Shown here in pieces: positions 479 through 8,300 of a DNA stretch of 11,609 bases. The notes under the pieces are model-generated. The model did not search any database and had not been told where the DNA came from. It was given only the letters and a program-made list of their open reading frames with translations. Numbering within the stretch: the first letter of the stretch is position 1; every line of letters starts with the position of its first letter. A program made the position numbers and the translations under genes. Source of the DNA: a virus. Taxonomy: Duplodnaviria > Heunggongvirae > Uroviricota > Caudoviricetes. The DNA is taken from IMG/VR virus record IMGVR_UViG_2695420600_000007; one strand, written 5' to 3'.

Positions 479-3055
479 ATGAGTGATATTTTCTCAGGAA
501 GAGAATTATCAGTACAGTATAATGCTGATATTGGTAACAGAACACCACAGGGAGCAGGCAATGTAGTAATTAAACAGATTAATACTTTTCCAACCTTAAC
601 AATAAATTCAGAAGCAAATAATTTTGAAACGTATGATAGTGATTACAGGACAGTACTACTATCTGATAAATCAGTAGCACCATTTGATATTGTAGTTAAC
701 TACCTACCTGATGATCCTACACATCAATTCTTGGATAATGCCGCTAAGTCTCAGCAGCTTTTCCAGATCATCATTCAGTACCAGATGAATAAGGATGAAA
801 ATACCATTACTTATGCGATGGTGAATGGTTATATCACCTCTTATAAGTTGGACGGTGATAAAGGTTCAGTAGTAACCAAGGCATACAGTTTTGCCCCACA
901 TGATGTGATCGCACGTGCAATGACCATTAACGCACTATCGCCAATCTATCAGGGGGACTACGGTTTAGGTTCGAACACTACGGATGTACCTCAGTACTCA
1001 CCATCAGTACCTACGGGTAACAGCTTCATCAAAGTACCATCATCTCAAGCAGGCAATCCTGCCGGGGCGGATCTGATGGGAGTAGGGCTTGTAGATGGCA
1101 CTACTGTAAGTTCTCTTGCGATGACAAAGACGGGTACTCTAAGTATCTATGCAAAGAACGCTACAACCGCCTGGACACGCATATATACCGCTACACAGAT
1201 GGACGGGCGATACGTACCCCTTACACGTACCATCAACGGCCATGCACTCACGGCCAATTTAGTACTGAACAGTGAAGATACAGGTTCAGTACCTGATACA
1301 CGTACTGTGAATGGTAAGCCTCTAAGTGAGGATGTAGTACTTACCAGTACTGATACCGGCTCTGTACCAGATACACGGACAGTTAATGGTCATGTACTCA
1401 GTGAAGATATAGTACTGAGTAGTGAAGATACAGGTTCAGTACCTGATACACGTATGGTCAACGGTCATGTACTCAGTGAGGATGTAGTACTTACCAGTAC
1501 TGATGTTGGCTTAGGGAAGGTTACAGATGATGCCCAGCTTACGATAGCAGGTAATCTAAGTGATCTGGGGGACGTGGAAGAAGCACGTATTAACCTTGCT
1601 GTTTACTCAATGGATGAAGTAGATGCAGAGGTAACGGCTTTAGCTGACAGTATTACTTCCCTTGATTCCGCTTCCATGAAGAAAGCGAGTAACCTTTCTG
1701 ATCTATCCAGTCTCTCTACAGCACGTACTAACCTACAGGTGAACCGTTTGACTCAGGGTGCTACGTACACCGATCTGATGAGTAATGACCTGACTAACCG
1801 TATCCGAATTCAGGATAACGGGGCATGGGGTGCAAGTACTGGTACTGGATGGATTGCTTTAGGTATAGGTCAGGGGGGGACAGGGGCTACAGATGCTTTG
1901 AGTGCTCGCCTAAACTTTCAGGTGGATCGCTTTAATCAAGGTAGTAATTTAACAACTATTAAATCCGCTGATTCTTCCGCTGCATTAGTGGTTTATGATG
2001 GAGGGCAATGGGGTTCAGCTACATATATTGCGGGTGCTTTCACTGGCTGGAAAGCATTAGCAATTCCGCAGGGCGGTACTGGTGTTAAGACTCAGGCTGA
2101 GTTATGGCCTGCGATTCGTCCTACGGGTGCAACTTCTTTAGCAGGAGATCCTGTCTCTGATTCTGACGCGACTACCAAACGCTGGGTTGAAAACTTGCTG
2201 AGTAGTCGTACTTCAGTTAGTCCTCAATGGGATGTTATTGCTTCTTCCCCTTCCTCTACGGCAATTGGTAGTTATGTAACTGGAGGGCGTATTCGTTCGA
2301 TATGCAACATTGGTACATCAACTGAAATATCTGGTGGTTTTCGGGTTGGTAAAACGATGGGACAGACTGGACAGGCTGATCTCACCCTTTTTATTTCTGA
2401 AAATGGTGCAGAGGATAAACTATGGGGGCTAAAAGGGCCGACTGGAACGATCCTAACTGATGTTCAATCAGGATGGATGACTAATACCGCTGTTTCGGGA
2501 CCGACAGATGCCAATACCATCACCTTTAACGGTATGTATGCAGGGCCAGGTGACTCAGGTATTAACTATAGTGAAAAATATTCCCCTTTATTGCACATGC
2601 AAAGACACCCAGGGGCAAATCGCTCTCAGCTTCAGATAGACGGTGGTGGTACTTTAAGAGTACGAGGCGGGAACGGTACAACATGGTTTGGATGGTTAGT
2701 AATGCAAGCTCAAGGTACATCAGGTCGTGAGTTTAAAAGAGACATAACTCCAGCAAATCCAGTTGAAGCATTAGATCGGATAATGTCACAAGATTTAGTA
2801 ACGTTTATCTACAAGGATGATGAACAAGAAAGGGTTAGGTTTGGTGTTATCGCCGAAGATGCTGAGTTGACTGCTCCGCAGTACATTAAGCATGATGAAG
2901 AAACAGTTGAAATAGAAGGGGAGATTGTCACTCGTGATCATCCACGTGTTGATTTAAATCCAATAGTGATGGACTTGATGGGAGCTATTCAAGCCCAACA
3001 AGAAGAAATTAATCAGCTAAAAGATTTAGTACAACAGCTATTAAATAATAAATAA
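479..3055 (+). CDS. Tail fibre protein (858 aa): N-terminal domain paralogous to the tube protein, tandem fibre repeats, and a C-terminal intramolecular chaperone (peptidase S74-like) autoprocessing domain
   Basis: Long ORF with RBS AAAGGA at 465..470. The N-terminus MSDIFSG...NTF...VNYLPDD...GDKGSVVTKAYSFA aligns with the 3114..3587 protein (MAMDIFSG...NTF...VNYLPDN...GDKDEVVTKTFTLA). Four tandem 25-aa repeats (SVPDTRTVNG..LSEDVVLTSTDTG) resemble phage tail-fibre repeats. NLSDL...AR.NL and GGTG motifs are fibre-like. The C-terminus SGREFKRDITPANPVEALDRI...FIYKDDEQERVRFGVIAEDAE matches the S-D/G-x-R-x-K-x-(N/D)-I pattern of endosialidase-type chaperone domains. Confidence 0.85.
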   Translation: MSDIFSGRELSVQYNADIGNRTPQGAGNVVIKQINTFPTLTINSEANNFETYDSDYRTVLLSDKSVAPFDIVVNYLPDDPTHQFLDNAAKSQQLFQIIIQYQMNKDENTITYAMVNGYITSYKLDGDKGSVVTKAYSFAPHDVIARAMTINALSPIYQGDYGLGSNTTDVPQYSPSVPTGNSFIKVPSSQAGNPAGADLMGVGLVDGTTVSSLAMTKTGTLSIYAKNATTAWTRIYTATQMDGRYVPLTRTINGHALTANLVLNSEDTGSVPDTRTVNGKPLSEDVVLTSTDTGSVPDTRTVNGHVLSEDIVLSSEDTGSVPDTRMVNGHVLSEDVVLTSTDVGLGKVTDDAQLTIAGNLSDLGDVEEARINLAVYSMDEVDAEVTALADSITSLDSASMKKASNLSDLSSLSTARTNLQVNRLTQGATYTDLMSNDLTNRIRIQDNGAWGASTGTGWIALGIGQGGTGATDALSARLNFQVDRFNQGSNLTTIKSADSSAALVVYDGGQWGSATYIAGAFTGWKALAIPQGGTGVKTQAELWPAIRPTGATSLAGDPVSDSDATTKRWVENLLSSRTSVSPQWDVIASSPSSTAIGSYVTGGRIRSICNIGTSTEISGGFRVGKTMGQTGQADLTLFISENGAEDKLWGLKGPTGTILTDVQSGWMTNTAVSGPTDANTITFNGMYAGPGDSGINYSEKYSPLLHMQRHPGANRSQLQIDGGGTLRVRGGNGTTWFGWLVMQAQGTSGREFKRDITPANPVEALDRIMSQDLVTFIYKDDEQERVRFGVIAEDAELTAPQYIKHDEETVEIEGEIVTRDHPRVDLNPIVMDLMGAIQAQQEEINQLKDLVQQLLNNK
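1211..1510 (+). repeat. Four in-frame tandem 75-bp (25-codon) repeats inside the fibre gene
   Basis: Repeat units at 1211..1285, 1286..1360, 1361..1435 and 1436..1510. Perfect 34-nt direct repeats at 1271..1304 and 1421..1454, and perfect 30-nt direct repeats at 1325..1354 and 1475..1504, give a 150-bp super-period. Confidence 0.85.
2720..3052 (+). other. C-terminal intramolecular chaperone / autoproteolytic domain of the fibre (S74-like); predicted cleavage immediately before Ser748 (codon 2720..2722)
   Basis: Motif QAQGT|SGREFKRDI followed by ALDRI and FIYKDD..RVRFGVIAEDAE, then a C-terminal helical heptad-like tail (IQAQQEEINQLKDLVQQLL). Assigned from recalled family motifs, not from a search. 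Confidence 0.6.
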
Positions 3056-3063
3056 ATATAAAC

Positions 3064-3098
3064 GGGGTGAACGGATTCACTCCAATAAAATTTTCTTA
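3064..3098 (+). terminator. Candidate intrinsic terminator after the fibre gene (weak)
   Basis: Hairpin GGGGTGAA-cgga-TTCACTCC (8-bp stem with one G-U pair, 3064..3083) followed by AATAAAATTTTCTT. The T-tract is not immediately adjacent to the stem. Confidence 0.35.
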
Positions 3099-3113
3099 TA
3101 AGGATATAAAACT

Positions 3114-3587
3114 ATGGCTATGGATATTTTTTCCGGTGCTAACCTTACTGTAGAAGTAGGTTCAAGTGCTGGTAAAACAGTTGCTACTGACTTTGTAGAA
3201 GTACCAGAGGTAAACACCTTCAGTACTTCAGGCTTTGAAAGTACTGTAATTAGCGTAAAAACATTCAATAATGCTTATGATCGTAAGCTATTGGGTACTA
3301 AGTCAATCCCGGACATTTCTCTTGCAGTTAACTACTTACCAGATAATGCAGTACATCAGAATTTAGAACAACTTGCAGACGATCAGAAACGTTGTCAGGT
3401 AAAACTAAGCTATTTTACCGATGCAACTAAAAAAGAAGGTTTCTTTGTAATTTATACCTGCTTTGTTTCAAGTACCACTATCGGTGGTGATAAAGATGAA
3501 GTAGTAACTAAGACTTTCACCCTTGCAGTTGATGGTGAAGCAATTGATTCAGGTCTGATTACTCCAAAACCAGAATCGGGCGAATAA
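3114..3587 (+). CDS. Probable major tail (tube) protein, 157 aa
   Basis: Sits directly upstream of the chaperone pair and tape measure gene, the position of lambda gene V. Size and the N-terminal G-x-x-L-x-V-x-V-G pattern are typical of siphovirus tube proteins. RBS AAGGA at 3100..3104. Followed by a hairpin terminator, as is common for highly expressed tube genes. Confidence 0.6.
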   Translation: MAMDIFSGANLTVEVGSSAGKTVATDFVEVPEVNTFSTSGFESTVISVKTFNNAYDRKLLGTKSIPDISLAVNYLPDNAVHQNLEQLADDQKRCQVKLSYFTDATKKEGFFVIYTCFVSSTTIGGDKDEVVTKTFTLAVDGEAIDSGLITPKPESGE

Positions 3588-3938: not shown

Positions 3939-4333
3939 GAGGTGATATCGAATTAAAGTACTTTTGTAAGATGGTTAACAAAAGAGGCTTATCACCTGAA
4001 GAATACTTTAGTTTAGATCCTGATGTACTCAATATGCTTATGATCTACGATACTTTTATAGAACCATCCGGTACGCAGATTGAAATGATGAAACATGCGT
4101 ACCAGTGTTACTACACCACTATCAGTAATGGCAACCTAACACCAGAAGCAAGGAAAAGTATCAAGGTACAGGATTTTGATTTTCTTGATGTGCTTAGTGA
4201 TAGTACTAAGAGTACTTCAGAGAAAGCTGAAGAAAGAAAATTAAAAACTAAAGAGGCTCAATCCAATGATATTAAATCTATAGGGGAGTTAATTAAATCT
4301 CAGGTATTAGGAAAGAAAAAGAATGGCAAATAA
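3639..4333 (+). CDS. Tail assembly chaperone frameshift fusion product, gpGT-like (-1 shift at 3929..3935; the T-part frame ends at 4333)
   Basis: The downstream ORF (frame of 3971..4333) lies in the -1 frame relative to the G-like ORF and is open back to 3923, overlapping the slippery site. Its stop overlaps the tape measure start at 4323. Confidence 0.6.
3929..3935 (+). promoter_or_regulatory. Programmed -1 ribosomal frameshift slippery heptamer A_AAA_AAG
   Basis: In the zero frame the codons are gaA AAA AAG then TAA. A 7-A run at 3928..3934 is followed by G. The -1 frame is open from 3923 and continues into the 3971..4333 ORF, matching the conserved G/GT arrangement. Confidence 0.7.
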
Positions 4334-6536
4334 TAATAGAATACGTGTAGATATTACGGGTGATTCTTCCGGTTTACAGCGTGCTTTAAGGTCTGGTACT
4401 GAATCATTAGAGGAATTTGGTAGTACTGCTGGTGGCATTGTTGAAGAGTTCACAGGCCGAATAACTGGTATGGCTGGCGGGTTCGGTACTGCTATGACCG
4501 GGATCGCGGGTGCTGCGGCTATTGGTATTGGTGGCCTGGCAGCATTAGTAGAATCATCACGTGAATATGTGCGTGAAATGAACCAGATCAGTAAGAGTAC
4601 CGGATTGTCCGTGGTTCAGTTACAACAGCTATCAGCGGCGTTTAGTGGCCTCGGTCTTGAGATTGATAAGTTTGGTGATTTCAACAAGGATACCTTGGAT
4701 AAGCTCGGTGATGCTTTTCGTGCTGGCGGTGGTGTATCCGATGATCTTAAAGAATATGGACTCAACCTACAGGACTATAACAAGTACTTAAAACAGGCTG
4801 ATGGTGGTATGCAGGCTGTGATCCACACCTTTTACGCCATGCGTGATGCAGGTAAATCACAGAGTGAAATAGTTAACGTAATGGAAACGTTAGCCAGTGA
4901 CTCAAGCCACATGATTAGTACTCTTCAGCAGTTCAATAATGAGGCTCAAGCTACAGCCTATATCCAGTCACAAAATGCTGAAGTAACTAATGATGCTGCT
5001 GAAAAATATGCTGAATTCGATAAAAACCTTGGGAAACTTACTACCAGCATTAAAGGTACTATTGCTGATGGCCTATCACCTTTAGTTAATGCCATGAACA
5101 GTGTCTATGATGCTGCAAATCAAAAACCTCACGAGGCAGGTTTGTTTGAAGATCTGAATGAACGTATTAAAACTTCCAAGGGTTCTCTACAGGATATGTT
5201 GGATATCTGGGAAAAATTACGTACAGCAGGGGCATTAAACTACCAGGGTGCAGCACTCAATACTGGCATCATGGATGATAAGGGCAACAAGGGTAATGAG
5301 TTCGCTCAGGCTAAGGCACGTTTAGAAGAACTGGCAAACAACCTAAAGTCCGATGTTGCGGTTGCTACCGCTCCTACTGGCGGATGGGTTGATCAGGCAA
5401 AAGAAGCTGAAGATGCAGCGAAGAAGTTAGAACAACAACGTAAACAGGCAGAAGCGGCACAAAAGGCGGCAGATGCAAAACGCCTACAGGCTCAACGTAA
5501 TCTGGAAGCTGCTCTTGCTCAAGTTGGGGAAGATGGTTTTCAGGTACGTCTACAGCAGTTCGACAGACAACAAAAGGCACTTCTTAAAACCATCACCGAT
5601 AGTGCTCAAGTACTCGGTATCAATCCTGATGAAATGCTAAAGAACGCTACTGCATATGGTGCTAAACAACGTACTGATTTACTGAATTCAATGGTTGGTT
5701 ATCAAGATCCTAATCAGGGTCTGAAAGATACCAATGCTCTTATTGGTTCCGGTCTACTCAATGACAATCAGAAGGGGTATCTGGCACAGCAACAGAATCA
5801 GCGTATCAATGGTGGTAATCCATTAGCCTATAACGATACCGATCAGAAGTTGAAAGATAACGCTGATGCTATGAATGCTGAACTTCAGCAGAATGAGTTG
5901 TTGCTGAAAGGCCATGAGGACTATGAGAAACGTAAAGCTGAGATCACGGCAAAGTACAATGCACAGGCCATCCAAATCAGTAACCAGAATGCACAGGATC
6001 AGTTAAGTATCTTCTCAAGTACTGCACAGTCACTATCACAGGGCATGGTTGATGCGTTTGGGGAAAGTAGTGGGGCTGCACAAGCTGCATTTACCCTAAG
6101 TAAGAGCATAAGCATTGCACAGACAGTACTTTCAATTCAGTCAGCATTGGCCCAAGCACTCGCTACCCCTTGGCCAGCTTCATTGGCAAACTATGCACAA
6201 GTACTTTCACTTGGTATGTCGATTATTAGTACTGCAAAGGGTGCTGCTGCTGGTCAGTTCCATGGCGGGGTAGATGAACTACCAGCAAGTTATGACAACA
6301 AATCATTTGTACTTAAGCAGGGCGAGAGAGTGGTGCAGCCTGAAGCGAATAAGAAATTAACAGCATTCTTGGATAAACAAGAAGGTGGAAGTACTTCAGG
6401 TGATATTACCGTTAACGCACCATTGATCATCCAGGGTGATGTAGCTGATGATGACAAGAAATTTAATGAGATGCTTAAGAAACACGCCAATAGTGTTTCT
6501 CAAGCTGTGAGAAGTAGTCAAAAACGTAATACATAA
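4323..6536 (+). CDS. Tail tape measure protein, 737 aa
   Basis: Position after the G/GT pair. Gly/Ala-rich hydrophobic N-terminal segment (GMAGGFGTAMTGIAGAAAIGIGGLAAL), a long central Ala/Gln/Lys-rich helical region, and a C-terminal hydrophobic segment (ALATPWPASLANYAQVLSLGMSIISTAKGAAAG). Confidence 0.85.
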   Translation: MANNNRIRVDITGDSSGLQRALRSGTESLEEFGSTAGGIVEEFTGRITGMAGGFGTAMTGIAGAAAIGIGGLAALVESSREYVREMNQISKSTGLSVVQLQQLSAAFSGLGLEIDKFGDFNKDTLDKLGDAFRAGGGVSDDLKEYGLNLQDYNKYLKQADGGMQAVIHTFYAMRDAGKSQSEIVNVMETLASDSSHMISTLQQFNNEAQATAYIQSQNAEVTNDAAEKYAEFDKNLGKLTTSIKGTIADGLSPLVNAMNSVYDAANQKPHEAGLFEDLNERIKTSKGSLQDMLDIWEKLRTAGALNYQGAALNTGIMDDKGNKGNEFAQAKARLEELANNLKSDVAVATAPTGGWVDQAKEAEDAAKKLEQQRKQAEAAQKAADAKRLQAQRNLEAALAQVGEDGFQVRLQQFDRQQKALLKTITDSAQVLGINPDEMLKNATAYGAKQRTDLLNSMVGYQDPNQGLKDTNALIGSGLLNDNQKGYLAQQQNQRINGGNPLAYNDTDQKLKDNADAMNAELQQNELLLKGHEDYEKRKAEITAKYNAQAIQISNQNAQDQLSIFSSTAQSLSQGMVDAFGESSGAAQAAFTLSKSISIAQTVLSIQSALAQALATPWPASLANYAQVLSLGMSIISTAKGAAAGQFHGGVDELPASYDNKSFVLKQGERVVQPEANKKLTAFLDKQEGGSTSGDITVNAPLIIQGDVADDDKKFNEMLKKHANSVSQAVRSSQKRNT

Positions 6537-6546
6537 GAAAGCCCAG

Positions 6547-7119
6547 TTAGGGATTTTCCGTGTGATAAGACAAATATTGTGAAAGAGAAGATGAAAGGGT
6601 ATAGAGATTGTAATACTCTTCCCGCAATAATTTAACTTTAGGTGGTGAGTATTTAATATTGTATGCAAGCTGTGTTGAAAGAGTACGTAATCTCGATAAT
6701 GAATAATAACTCTTTACGATGGCATCTACTTCTTTTTTTGGGAGTGATGCTAATTTTTCTAATTGGGAATAATATACATCATCATGCAAATAAGAAACGG
6801 CAGTTGCTACTCTTTTAATAGCTTCTGTATCTTCAGTTGGAAGAGGAATACATATTTCATATGTGCCTAACACCTGAGACTCATCGCCACCAGTAGCAAG
6901 AGCTAAAAGGTTATTGTTGATTTCGCTCAATAAGATTACACGCATCTTAAAAACATCATCTGAACTTTCTTTCCATTTATCATATGCGTTATAGCCTATT
7001 TGGCCTGCAAATAACAACATAGCAACGATGACGGATGCAGCCTGCCAATCAAGCCTGTTAAAAAAAATACGAATCGAGGTTTTTAAATAAATAAAGAAAG
7101 AAGATATTCGAGGTAACAA
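6547..7119 (-). CDS. Hypothetical protein with a hydrophobic N-terminal segment; reverse-oriented accessory gene (moron) inside the tail module
   Basis: The only long ORF in the 584-bp gap between the tape measure and gpM-like genes, on the opposite strand. The region is visibly more AT-rich than its neighbours. ORF track start is TTG 7119; in-frame ATGs lie at 7020 and 6945, so the true start is uncertain. The N-terminus WQAASVIVAMLLFAGQIGY is hydrophobic. No recognisable family motif. Confidence 0.5.
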   Translation of the reverse strand: MLPRISSFFIYLKTSIRIFFNRLDWQAASVIVAMLLFAGQIGYNAYDKWKESSDDVFKMRVILLSEINNNLLALATGGDESQVLGTYEICIPLPTEDTEAIKRVATAVSYLHDDVYYSQLEKLASLPKKEVDAIVKSYYSLSRLRTLSTQLAYNIKYSPPKVKLLREEYYNLYTLSSSLSQYLSYHTENP

Positions 7120-7120
7120 A

Positions 7121-7678
7121 ATGGCATCCTTTTCAAATCAAATAAAAGTAACGAACTTTCAAATTAAAAGTACTGAACCGATCTATTCTAATCAAACATG
7201 GACAGGTCAACGTATCATGAGAAGTACTGGAATTCAATACTATCAAATTCAGTTCACCCTTAATTTTAATCCTGCATCACTAAATGAAGTGAATAGCTTT
7301 TTAGCTCAATATGCACAGGGCAAACCTTTCACTATGTCATTGGGGCTTGCAGGTACATATTACGGTAAACAGACTGGTGCAGTAACCGCTACTGCTCTCA
7401 CTAAACCGGGTAATATGGTTGTACCTATCAGTACTAACACATTAGCTGTGGGTGAGTGGGTACAGTTTTCCAATCACAATAAGCTATATCGAATCGTAGA
7501 ACGTACCAGTACTTCAATTACTATTTTCCCTGCTCTACAAAATACAGTACAGGCAAGTGAAGCACTCAAATATAACAATCTCATGATCGAGGCTGTATTA
7601 GATCCAGACAATGATTATTCATTGCCTATTGGGAACATCATGAATATTACATTGAAAGCAACGGAGAATATCATCTAA
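7121..7678 (+). CDS. Minor tail protein, gpM-like (distal tail region)
   Basis: Position after the tape measure gene. The segment SFLAQYAQGKPFTMSL resembles the lambda gpM motif ESFLEEHGGWKSFLWT. RBS GAGG at 7110..7113. Stop overlaps the next start (TAATG). Confidence 0.5.
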   Translation: MASFSNQIKVTNFQIKSTEPIYSNQTWTGQRIMRSTGIQYYQIQFTLNFNPASLNEVNSFLAQYAQGKPFTMSLGLAGTYYGKQTGAVTATALTKPGNMVVPISTNTLAVGEWVQFSNHNKLYRIVERTSTSITIFPALQNTVQASEALKYNNLMIEAVLDPDNDYSLPIGNIMNITLKATENII

Positions 7679-8300
7679 TGGACTCAGGTATATATACTAA
7701 TGCTAATCTTCTTAAGTACTGGAAGTTAGTCAGAGGTACAACCAAGACAAGATTAACACTAATGGAAATTATGAGCTTAGGCGTTAATGTTACTTGTTTT
7801 GATGTACTACCAAAAGGTACTAATGGTTTTCACTGGACGGATTCACTAATTGATATAGATCTGGATGGTTATAAGTACATAAGTTTCCCCGACATTATCA
7901 GTGGTTCATTACCTTCATATTCTGAACAAAAGGGCATGTCTAATGATGCTATCAATTTTAAAATTAGCAATGTAAACGCCTCGGTTCGTGCTCTTGCCCT
8001 TGGTGGTTTCTTGAAAGATGCACAGATGAATATCAAGTTAGTAATTCTCAATCCATATGATAGTACTGTAATTGATTCAATGCTCATGTTTACGGGGTTT
8101 ATTGACTATGTACAGGCAGTAACTGATCCAAATCAGAAGCAAAACGAAATGACTATATATGTGAATTCTGTCTATAAGAAATTAGACAGACAACCTGCAT
8201 TAATTGCCGCCAACTCAGTATATCAATCTTACTATAGAAATGATGAGTACTTTAGTCTGTTAGGTCAAGTTAATCAAAATCAGAACTGGAAATACAAGTA

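What the first reader, a model, noticed from the sequence alone, without database searches (positions are those of the whole stretch)
6547..7119. Opposite-strand, AT-rich gene with a hydrophobic N-terminus between the tape measure and gpM-like genes
The tail module is otherwise co-directional and tightly coupled. This gene interrupts it on the opposite strand and has lower GC and a probable membrane anchor, which is the profile of a moron expressed from a prophage. Morons at this location often encode superinfection exclusion, abortive infection, or other host-interaction or defence functions. Its sequence shows no family motif I can recognise, so it may be novel.
Basis: partly seen in the sequence, partly recalled or inferred. 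Interest (0 to 1): 0.6.

Follow-up and report, generated by a model that had tools for sequence, protein, structure and literature searches.

The report
Swappable membrane-protein gene in prophage tail
A real, strongly conserved 190-residue membrane-anchored protein of unknown function sits backwards in a swappable slot between two tail genes of a prophage; it is most likely a host-protecting cargo gene (perhaps blocking entry of other phages), a familiar kind of element whose protein family has never been studied.

Summary
6547-7119(-) is a genuine 190-aa gene: dN/dS is 0.07-0.31, and no ORF this long arose in 300 random sequences of matching composition. Its start codon changes between TTG, GTG and ATG at one site. 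It has one N-terminal transmembrane helix and a predicted four-helix bundle. The "lower GC" claim is only partly true: the gene matches the downstream tail genes.

It is accessory cargo in a hotspot. In related phages the tape-measure/distal-tail junction is empty (64-76 bp) or holds this family, a DUF6216 membrane protein or a DUF726 hydrolase-like protein. All cargo lies on the opposite strand. Cargo similarity does not track flank similarity. Two decayed prophage remnants (Citrobacter, Enterobacter) keep this gene intact while both flanking genes are broken.

The family is small and uncharacterised (no Pfam; weak hit to phrog_3829). Distant members occupy P2 "moron position 2" (the Fun(Z) site) and integrase-proximal or defence-rich islands beside TIR/PDC-S66, Lamassu and DUF4238 genes.

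Function is inferred. The best guess is an inner-membrane superinfection-exclusion or defence protein. No promoter was found and no phenotype is known. It is a new member of a known kind (prophage moron). Interest is moderate.

The parts
6547..7119 (-). Cargo gene ('ORFX'), 190 aa, TTG start at 7119-7117, TAA stop at 6549-6547
   Evidence: ORF list and sequence. dN/dS 0.07-0.31. Homologues of 190 aa are found in Citrobacter, Enterobacter, Buttiauxella, Dryocola, Klebsiella and IMG/VR contigs. The start codon is TTG in most, GTG in L022 and ATG in L024 and L026, at the same or an adjacent codon.
7127..7131 (-). Shine-Dalgarno-like AAGGA, 7 nt upstream of the TTG start; lies inside codons 2-4 of the divergent distal tail protein gene
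   Evidence: Sequence. Identical in all 9 aligned loci. Its conservation could also be due to the DTP codons.
6985..7041 (-). Codons 27-45: the single predicted transmembrane helix (AASVIVAMLLFAGQIGYNA), preceded by W25
   Evidence: Hydropathy and flanking charges. AF2 places it in a continuous helix 25-76 with pLDDT about 87. It is the most conserved segment of the whole family.
6550..6984 (-). Codons 46-190: predicted four-helix bundle built on the extension of the TM helix. Carries invariant E66 and N70, the CxPLP loop (C90-P94), and L126 and Y138
6537..6558 (+). Imperfect hairpin just after the tape measure stop; overlaps the last codons and stop of the cargo gene
   Evidence: Fold of 6525-6580 (-9.4 kcal/mol, z -1.5). 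The equivalent hairpins in an empty locus and a DUF6216 locus are stronger (-14.9 and -14.8 kcal/mol).
7083..7114 (+). Leader of the distal tail protein gene: a TAAATAAATA motif (TATAAATAC in relatives) and the GAGGT ribosome-binding site; overlaid by codons 2-13 of the cargo gene on the other strand
   Evidence: The junction comparison shows the motif and SD also in loci with no cargo.
4323..6536 (+). Tape measure protein gene (left border of the hotspot)
   Evidence: phrog_13674 E=5e-86.
7121..7678 (+). Distal tail protein gene (right border of the hotspot); must contain the cargo gene's promoter if it has one
   Evidence: phrog_1302 E=8e-17. Weak pb9 B-domain hit.

Best explanation
ORFX is an accessory cargo gene (a moron) that occupies a variable slot between the tape measure and distal tail protein genes of a clade of enterobacterial siphovirus prophages. 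It encodes a single-pass inner-membrane protein. The short basic N-tail is predicted to face the cytoplasm. One unusually conserved transmembrane helix follows, and a roughly 145-residue four-helix bundle is predicted to sit on the periplasmic face. The most likely role is protection of the lysogen against incoming phages at the inner membrane. It would interfere, through its TM helix and membrane-proximal bundle, with the tape-measure-dependent channel or the host membrane proteins used for genome injection (superinfection exclusion). This is the way HK97 gp15 works. Shown here: it is a real gene, it is accessory, it is exchanged horizontally, it is retained under purifying selection even when the prophage decays, and it is a TM-anchored helical protein. 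Inferred: the topology, expression from the prophage, the anti-phage role and the injection-block mechanism. The 0.4 confidence is for the whole chain. My estimates for the steps are about 0.9 for 'real, selected accessory membrane-protein cargo', about 0.55 for 'anti-phage' and about 0.35 for 'injection block'.
For: Real gene: dN/dS 0.07-0.31; no chance ORF of at least 190 codons in 300 simulations; start codon TTG/GTG/ATG at one site with a conserved AAGGA. Accessory and hotspot: among 21 IMG/VR loci with the same distal tail protein, the junction is empty in L036, L039, L041, L045 and L046 (64-76 bp), and in L038, where IS1 has also inserted. It holds ORFX-family genes in 8 loci, DUF6216 genes in 4 (including L031, whose flanks are 93-96% nt identical to the window) and DUF726 genes in 3. 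All cargo is on the opposite strand with GC 0.31-0.36. Cassette exchange: L043 and L044 have flanks at 73-75% nt but ORFX at 84%; L032 has flanks at 83-88% but ORFX at 64%. Host-level selection: Citrobacter (L001-L004) and Enterobacter (L005/L017) remnants sit at different chromosomal sites and keep a 190-aa intact ORFX, while the TMP, DTP and next gene are truncated or frameshifted. A 31%-identical member occupies the same TMP/DTP slot in a more distant phage (L050). Other members occupy P2 moron position 2, the Fun(Z) site (PMC3573123). Others sit in integrase-proximal or defence-rich islands next to TIR/PDC-S66, DUF4238-Pers plus mREases, and Lamassu. Membrane protein: one hydrophobic segment, with N-tails net +2 to +7 in all members. 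The TM helix is the best conserved region, with W25, A33 and F37, which points to specific intramembrane contacts. Precedent: HK97 gp15 is a moron beside the tape measure gene, inserts in the inner membrane and blocks genome entry in a tail-dependent way (PMC3594210). SNIPE shows that inner-membrane defences can engage tape measure proteins (PMC13190303).
Against: No phenotype exists for any family member. No sigma-70-like promoter was found on the minus strand upstream, and no terminator; a by-eye search of the alignment found only weak candidates. Expression in lysogens is therefore unproven. There is no sequence or specific fold similarity to any known exclusion or defence protein. The hydrophobicity of the TM segment is moderate (1.52). 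K+R counts on the two sides of the helix are equal in this allele (4 and 4), so the topology call rests mainly on the distant members. In the P2-like phage AC1, which carries a family member (gp21), the lysogen's protection against lambda and LF82_P8 was reproduced by the cloned TIR locus alone. No extra phenotype attributable to gp21 was reported (PMC9122126). Cargo at such sites can also be virulence or fitness factors, such as NeaT (PMC3573123).
Confidence: 0.4

Rival explanations
1. It is a membrane-acting abortive-infection or effector-type defence protein. It would sense infection, alone or with an unlinked partner, and permeabilise or depolarise the inner membrane, as the TM effectors of CBASS, Thoeris, Pycsar or retron systems do.
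Against: In the window and in all tail-module loci the gene stands alone. The same island without the TIR gene carries the family member directly after the integrase (L051-L053), so TIR is not an obligate partner. There is no PADLOC match. A single moderate TM helix is a weak basis for a pore. The gene is retained in remnants without a partner.
Confidence: 0.2
2. It is a lysogenic-conversion gene unrelated to phage defence: an envelope protein that alters host physiology, stress tolerance, surface properties or virulence, as Lom, Bor or NeaT do.
For: It shows the same evidence of being selected accessory cargo retained by the host. PGAP names the P2-like members 'lysogenic conversion protein'. 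P2 moron position 2 is known to carry a virulence-linked gene, neaT, in CFT073 (PMC3573123). One homologue sits on a Pantoea megaplasmid next to a Sel1-repeat lipoprotein in a non-defence context.
Against: The neighbourhoods of distant members are enriched for known defence genes. The allele diversification decoupled from the flanks is more typical of conflict genes. The PGAP name is positional and not experimental.
Confidence: 0.2
3. It serves the phage's own cycle, for example by modulating its own injection, lysis timing or tail assembly, and is not host-directed cargo.
For: It is embedded in the tail module. Its initiation region interlocks with that of the distal tail protein gene. It is syntenic down to 31% identity.
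Against: Close relatives with 93-96% identical flanks lack it or carry unrelated cargo, and several have an empty junction, so it is dispensable. It is kept intact where the tail genes are dead. Family members occur in non-phage islands and plasmids.
Confidence: 0.07
4. It is not a gene: a chance antisense ORF in an AT-rich intergenic spacer.
For: Unusual TTG start. No detectable promoter or terminator. Several genome annotations call shorter versions of the gene.
Against: dN/dS 0.07-0.31. None of 300 simulations reached 190 codons. The frame is open and the length conserved at 55-87% amino-acid identity. Profile-detectable homologues occur in other contexts. The AF2 model is confident.
Confidence: 0.01

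Closest known systems
HK97 gp15 (YebO-like) superinfection-exclusion moron
   Same: It is a non-essential gene inserted in the tail operon next to the tape measure gene of an enterobacterial siphovirus prophage. It encodes a small inner-membrane protein. gp15 blocks genome entry in a way that depends on the incoming phage's tail region (PMC3594210).
   Different: No sequence relationship (no Pfam hit). ORFX is larger and carries a roughly 145-residue helical bundle. It lies on the other side of the tape measure gene and on the opposite strand. Its exclusion activity is untested.
phrog_3829 / P2-like 'lysogenic conversion protein' (e.g. P2_AC1 gp21, WP_264115996)
   Same: True but distant homologues. 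ORFX hits phrog_3829 at E=1e-5. The family profile matches gp21 with hhalign probability 98.6% and hmmsearch E=5e-25. They share the architecture of a basic tail, a W-x-A-x-S-V-I-x-A-M TM helix and a helical domain. Both occupy a moron slot between tail genes.
   Different: About 20-25% identity. The phage type (myovirus) and the slot (G/FI, the Fun(Z) position) differ, and there the gene is co-directional with the tail genes. It is also of unknown function; the name is positional.
P2 Fun(Z), and the old/tin loci of P2-like phages
   Same: Lysogenic-conversion cargo at fixed variable positions in a prophage late region. Cloned fun(Z) blocks T5 (annotation). The hotspot concept was validated experimentally for P2/P4 (PMC9122126).
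   Different: Fun(Z) is an unrelated 528-aa protein. The TMP/distal-tail-protein slot of this siphovirus clade did not turn up in the literature searches run here.
Transmembrane effectors or partners of TIR, CBASS or retron defence systems
   Same: Small TM proteins in defence islands. One distant family member is adjacent to a TIR (PDC-S66/ThsB-like) gene.
   Different: ORFX is solitary. The TIR adjacency is not conserved. There is no PADLOC model match.
Four-helix-bundle periplasmic sensor domains (Tar/MCP 4HB, histidine-kinase sensors)

Membership tests
Moron (Juhala/Hendrix sense) | Present in some genomes and absent from close relatives at the same position | tested here: met
   Empty junctions of 64-76 bp in L036, L039, L041, L045 and L046. 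Different cargo in L031, L033-35, L040, L047 and L048.
Moron (Juhala/Hendrix sense) | Base composition different from neighbouring genes | tested here: not met
   GC 0.344 against DTP 0.369, next gene 0.346 and chaperone 0.317. Only the tape measure (0.439) differs.
Moron (Juhala/Hendrix sense) | Own promoter and terminator | tested here: inconclusive
   The consensus scan found no minus-strand promoter or terminator in 6200-7500. There is only a weak shared hairpin at the 3' end. The scan detects only near-consensus sigma-70 sites.
Moron (Juhala/Hendrix sense) | Expressed from the repressed prophage | not testable with these tools
   Needs RNA-seq or 5'-RACE from a lysogen. Indirect support: the gene is intact and under purifying selection in dead prophage remnants.
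HK97 gp15 / YebO family | Sequence homology to YebO/gp15 | tested here: not met
   No Pfam family at E<=0.01. No NCBIfam match.
HK97 gp15-like exclusion (mechanistic class) | Inner-membrane protein that blocks genome entry without blocking the receptor | not testable with these tools
   Only the single TM helix is predicted.
phrog_3829 | Significant match to the family profile over most of its length | tested here: met
   E=1e-5, residues 21-143 against profile positions 8-134 of 197. Supported by bridging members: P0012 2.8e-23, P0014 6.5e-27 and gp21 9e-134, and by hhalign at 98.6%. ORFX is a distant, not a core, member.
Known anti-phage defence systems (PADLOC v2) | Match to any PADLOC protein model | tested here: not met
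   No family at E<=1 for ORFX, P0004 or P0005, and none at E<=0.01 for P0012 or P0017.
TIR-associated TM effector (Thoeris-like or AC1-type) | Conserved operonic linkage to a TIR or other signal-producing enzyme | tested here: not met
   No such gene in the window. The TIR is adjacent only in L011-L013 and absent from the otherwise identical island L051-L053. The TM proteins of the AC1 TIR locus do not match the family profile.
Holin / antiholin / spanin | Location in the lysis cassette with an endolysin | tested here: not met
   The gene lies inside the tail module. No lysis genes are within the window.

The most novel reading that the evidence does not exclude
ORFX founds an unrecognised family of stand-alone, single-pass membrane anti-phage proteins. 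Their conserved TM helix (W-x-A-x-S-V-I-x-A-M-x-x-F) and membrane-proximal bundle (invariant E66 and N70) would target the tape-measure or inner-membrane injection conduit of siphoviruses. On this reading, the tape-measure/distal-tail-protein junction of this prophage clade is a previously undescribed defence hotspot. Its other occupants (DUF6216, DUF726) would also be new exclusion or defence genes.
Probability: 0.3. Interest if true: 0.65.

Novelty: new member of a known kind. Interest (0 to 1): 0.45.

Why it matters
Prophage cargo slots have repeatedly yielded new anti-phage genes, as in the P2/P4 hotspots and HK97 gp15. This junction offers three uncharacterised cargo families in one defined, easily cloned position. 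ORFX also comes with a natural experiment: it is retained intact in two independently decayed prophages, which argues that it benefits the bacterium. If it blocks genome injection, its unusually conserved transmembrane helix would be a handle on how siphovirus tape measure proteins cross the inner membrane, which is still poorly understood. If it has no phage phenotype, it is simply one more lysogenic-conversion gene of unknown role.

Tried and rejected
- Nucleotide searches of the window against GenBank phages and 5,426 complete E. coli genomes found nothing. tblastn of ORFX and of P0017 against GenBank phages also found nothing.
- Pfam, NCBIfam, PADLOC and PDB-sequence searches gave no family.
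- Tested and rejected: that the TIR protein next to a distant homologue is an obligate partner. The same island occurs without it, and the AC1 TIR-locus TM proteins are unrelated.
- Tested and not supported: that TATAAATAC upstream of the distal tail protein gene is a repeated late-promoter motif. It is not enriched in the window.
- A promoter was looked for with the consensus scan and by eye in a 9-locus alignment. Only weak candidates were found, such as TTGACC with a poor -10.
- The internal ATG (M34) was considered as the true start, as annotated in Dryocola. It was rejected because the frame is open from the upstream start in every allele, the start codon interconverts between TTG, GTG and ATG, and W25 with the residues before M34 is conserved in distant members, all of which have N-tails.
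- A profile too diverse for the search for related loci failed, so a narrower one was used.

Full report
**What is there.** The window is a siphovirus tail module read on the + strand. It holds a fibre-like protein (479-3055), a tail tube protein (3114-3587), two chaperone ORFs, a tape measure protein (TMP, 4323-6536), a distal tail protein (DTP, 7121-7678), two further tail genes and a tail-tip gene that runs off the end.
- The finding's coordinates match an ORF of 190 codons on the minus strand, 6547..7119. It starts with TTG.
- It fills the TMP-DTP gap almost to the base. Its stop is 10 nt from the TMP stop, and its TTG is 1 nt from the DTP ATG.
- Each of the two divergent genes has its ribosome-binding site inside the first codons of the other. 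AAGGA lies 7 nt before the TTG, within DTP codons 2-4. GAGGT lies before the DTP ATG, within ORFX codons 3-4.

**Is it a gene?** Yes.
- Random sequences with the local composition never gave an ORF this long (mean longest 100, maximum 175 codons in 300 trials).
- Homologues at 55-87% amino-acid identity keep the same length and frame.
- Pairwise dN/dS is 0.07-0.31 with dS up to saturation.
- The start is supported by three facts. The start codon is TTG in most alleles, GTG in L022, and ATG in L024 and L026, at the same or an adjacent codon. The frame is open from there even in the Dryocola genome, which annotates an internal ATG. W25 and the residues upstream of that internal Met are conserved in distant relatives, all of which have a basic N-tail.

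**The protein.**
- A single hydrophobic stretch (residues 27-45, Kyte-Doolittle 1.52) follows a net-positive N-tail. Across the family the tail carries net +2 to +7 and the stretch scores 1.16-2.39.
- AlphaFold2 on a 17-sequence alignment gave pLDDT 81.4 and pTM 0.66. The fold is all-helical: a short N-terminal helix, one continuous helix 25-76 (TM plus extension), a low-confidence loop carrying the conserved C-x-P-L-P, then helices 97-125, 128-153 and 159-188. This is a four-helix bundle sitting on the membrane helix.
- By the positive-inside rule the bundle should be periplasmic. This is an inference. In this particular allele K+R counts are equal on both sides of the helix, so the call leans on the distant members.
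- The TM helix is the most conserved part of the family, with mean top-residue frequency 0.61 against 0.38-0.46 elsewhere. F37, E66, N70, L126 and Y138 are invariant, W25 and C90 are 93% conserved, and A33 is 81% conserved. This suggests specific contacts within the membrane and not a passive anchor.
- Fold searches gave only generic helical bundles. PDB sequences gave nothing.

**It is accessory cargo in a hotspot.** Searching IMG/VR with the DTP returned 21 loci. The TMP/DTP junction is in one of the following states:

| Junction state | Loci | Notes |
|---|---|---|
| Empty | L036, L039, L041, L045, L046; also L038 | 64-76 bp gap; L038 also carries an IS1 in the DTP gene |
| ORFX-family gene | 8 loci | opposite strand |
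| DUF6216 multi-TM protein, 208-212 aa | L031, L040, L047, L048 | opposite strand |
| DUF726 hydrolase-like protein, 260-262 aa | L033-L035 | opposite strand |

- All cargo has GC 0.31-0.36.
- L031 is 93-96% nt identical to the window in the flanking genes, yet it carries DUF6216 in place of ORFX.
- Cargo similarity is uncoupled from the flanks. L043 and L044 have flanks at 73-75% nt but ORFX at 84%. L032 has flanks at 83-88% but ORFX at 64%.
- All states share a hairpin after the TMP stop and a TATAAATAC-like motif plus SD before the DTP ATG. Cargo sits between these two elements. ORFX extends over both, with its last codons in the hairpin and its first 13 codons over the DTP leader.
- A 31%-identical member occupies the same slot in a more distant phage (L050).

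**A natural experiment.**
- In Citrobacter cronae-type contigs (L001-L004, between ybhA and modABC) only about 1.8 kb of the tail module survives. In Enterobacter sp. CC120223-11 (L005/L017, between mipA and yeaG) under 1.3 kb survives.
- In both, the TMP is reduced to its last 77-121 codons, and the DTP is split by frameshifts (Citrobacter) or reduced to fragments (Enterobacter).
- In Citrobacter the TMP remnant also carries a frameshift and the next gene is cut after 87 codons.
- ORFX remains a 190-codon intact gene in both, with dN/dS about 0.09-0.13 against the window.
- This argues for selection at the level of the bacterium.

**The wider family.** It is small: 11 clusters at 50% identity among 1.84 billion proteins, and 12 clusters in the 5.8-billion set. 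There is no Pfam, NCBIfam or PADLOC model. ORFX hits phrog_3829 (unknown function) at E=1e-5. The core of that PHROG is a 197-aa protein of P2-like phages.
- In phage P2_AC1, gp21 (mis-started in the record) matches the family profile with hhalign probability 98.6% and hmmsearch E=5e-25, and matches phrog_3829 at 9e-134.
- gp21 lies between tail fibre assembly gene G and sheath gene FI. This is P2 "moron position 2" (PMC3573123), where P2 itself carries fun(Z), whose cloned gene blocks T5 (annotation).
- This P2-like member is in 203 of 5,426 complete E. coli genomes. PGAP labels it "lysogenic conversion protein" in some.
- Other members follow the integrase of a genomic island, either directly (L051-L053) or with a TIR/PDC-S66 gene inserted in between (L011-L013). 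Others lie near DUF4238-Pers and methyl-directed restriction genes (L015), next to Lamassu LmuA/LmuB (L054), alone in Kluyvera (L014), and on a Pantoea megaplasmid (L018).
- The TIR gene is therefore not an obligate partner.

**Mechanism.** The best-supported reading is a prophage-encoded protective factor acting at the inner membrane.
- The closest functional precedent is HK97 gp15. It is a moron next to the tape measure gene whose small inner-membrane product blocks genome entry in a tail-dependent way (PMC3594210).
- SNIPE shows that inner-membrane defences can associate with tape measure proteins (PMC13190303).
- I propose that ORFX's conserved TM helix and membrane-proximal bundle interfere with the tape-measure or host-protein conduit.
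- This step is inferred. No family member has a known phenotype.
- One piece of evidence counts mildly against a broad defence. In AC1 lysogens, the observed protection was reproduced by the TIR locus alone (PMC9122126).
- Rivals are an abortive-infection membrane effector, a non-defence lysogenic-conversion factor (compare NeaT at the P2 slot, PMC3573123) and a role in the phage's own cycle. The last is unlikely given dispensability and retention in dead prophages.

**Weak points.**
- No promoter or terminator was detected. The promoter, if any, must lie in the DTP coding sequence.
- The late transcript must read through ORFX in antisense to reach the DTP gene. This would oppose ORFX expression during lytic growth (inference).

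**Verdict.** This is a real, selected, horizontally exchanged membrane-protein cargo gene in a previously unremarked tail-module hotspot. It is a new, uncharacterised member of a well-known kind of element. Interest is moderate, and higher if an exclusion or defence phenotype is shown.

Noticed in passing
L031, L040, L047, L048 (about 2837-3482, minus strand); L033-L035 (about 2640-3436, minus strand): The same TMP/DTP slot holds two other uncharacterised cargo families: a DUF6216 multi-TM protein and a DUF726 alpha/beta-hydrolase-like protein with a GHSLG motif. Neither matches PADLOC. A DUF6216 gene is reported as H-NS-bound next to retron Eco1 in the BL21 P2-like prophage (bioRxiv 10.64898/2026.09.05.749240).
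   Followed up: partly
window 6537-6558 and 7083-7114; L036 3437-3500 and equivalents: A GC-rich hairpin directly after the tape measure stop, and a TATAAATAC-like motif 25-40 nt before the distal tail protein ATG, are conserved whether the slot is empty or filled. In empty loci the hairpin is followed by a short run of T's, like an internal terminator or attenuator inside the tail operon. The motif is not enriched elsewhere in the window.
   Followed up: partly
window 479-3055 (+): This 858-aa protein has a first ~140 residues that resemble the tail tube protein encoded at 3114-3587 (about 31% identity). Tandem ~22-residue repeats (…TGSVPDTRTVNG…) follow, and the C-terminus is a Peptidase_S74 intramolecular chaperone domain. 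It looks like a tube-like domain fused to a fibre. Its C-terminal half varies strongly between related loci.
   Followed up: no
L007, L008, L009, L010 (locus position 1): Contigs from four independent assemblies (Klebsiella, 'Shigella sonnei' and two SRA runs) all end inside codons ~12-15 of ORFX, at the cassette/DTP-leader boundary. This suggests a repeat boundary, for example a second prophage in the same genome sharing the downstream tail genes.
   Followed up: no
L001 6525-7460, L005 7250-8273, L049 2214-4147: The islands around ORFX remnants (Citrobacter, Enterobacter) and around the distant member P0014 share other genes. These are a 331-aa protein with no family (72-73% identity, L001/L002 vs L049) and, between L005 and L049, a DUF2188 protein (63%) and a methyltransferase-like gene (75%). 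It is unclear whether this is chance mosaicism or a functional neighbourhood.
   Followed up: partly
L056 (NC_070903.1) 17235-17828; L006 9908-10480: Public annotations start family members at internal codons: P2_AC1 gp21 at a GTG 16 codons downstream of the ATG, and Dryocola P0005 at M32 of the full-length 190-aa product. The full-length forms match phrog_3829 end to end, and PGAP calls the 197-aa form in E. coli genomes.
   Followed up: yes
whole window: The window has no megablast match in 50,697 GenBank phage records (bases 5500-8300) or 5,426 complete E. coli genomes (bases 6300-7400), although it is 100% identical to 'Shigella sonnei' TPA contigs and three IMG/VR UViGs. Whole-window GC is 0.40, which I know to be low for Enterobacteriaceae (about 50%).
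   Followed up: no
L056 23136-23921 (+): P2_AC1 gp28 is a 261-aa multi-TM protein on the opposite strand between the baseplate spike gene and the tail completion gene. It is another apparent cargo gene in a third slot of the P2-like late region.
   Followed up: no
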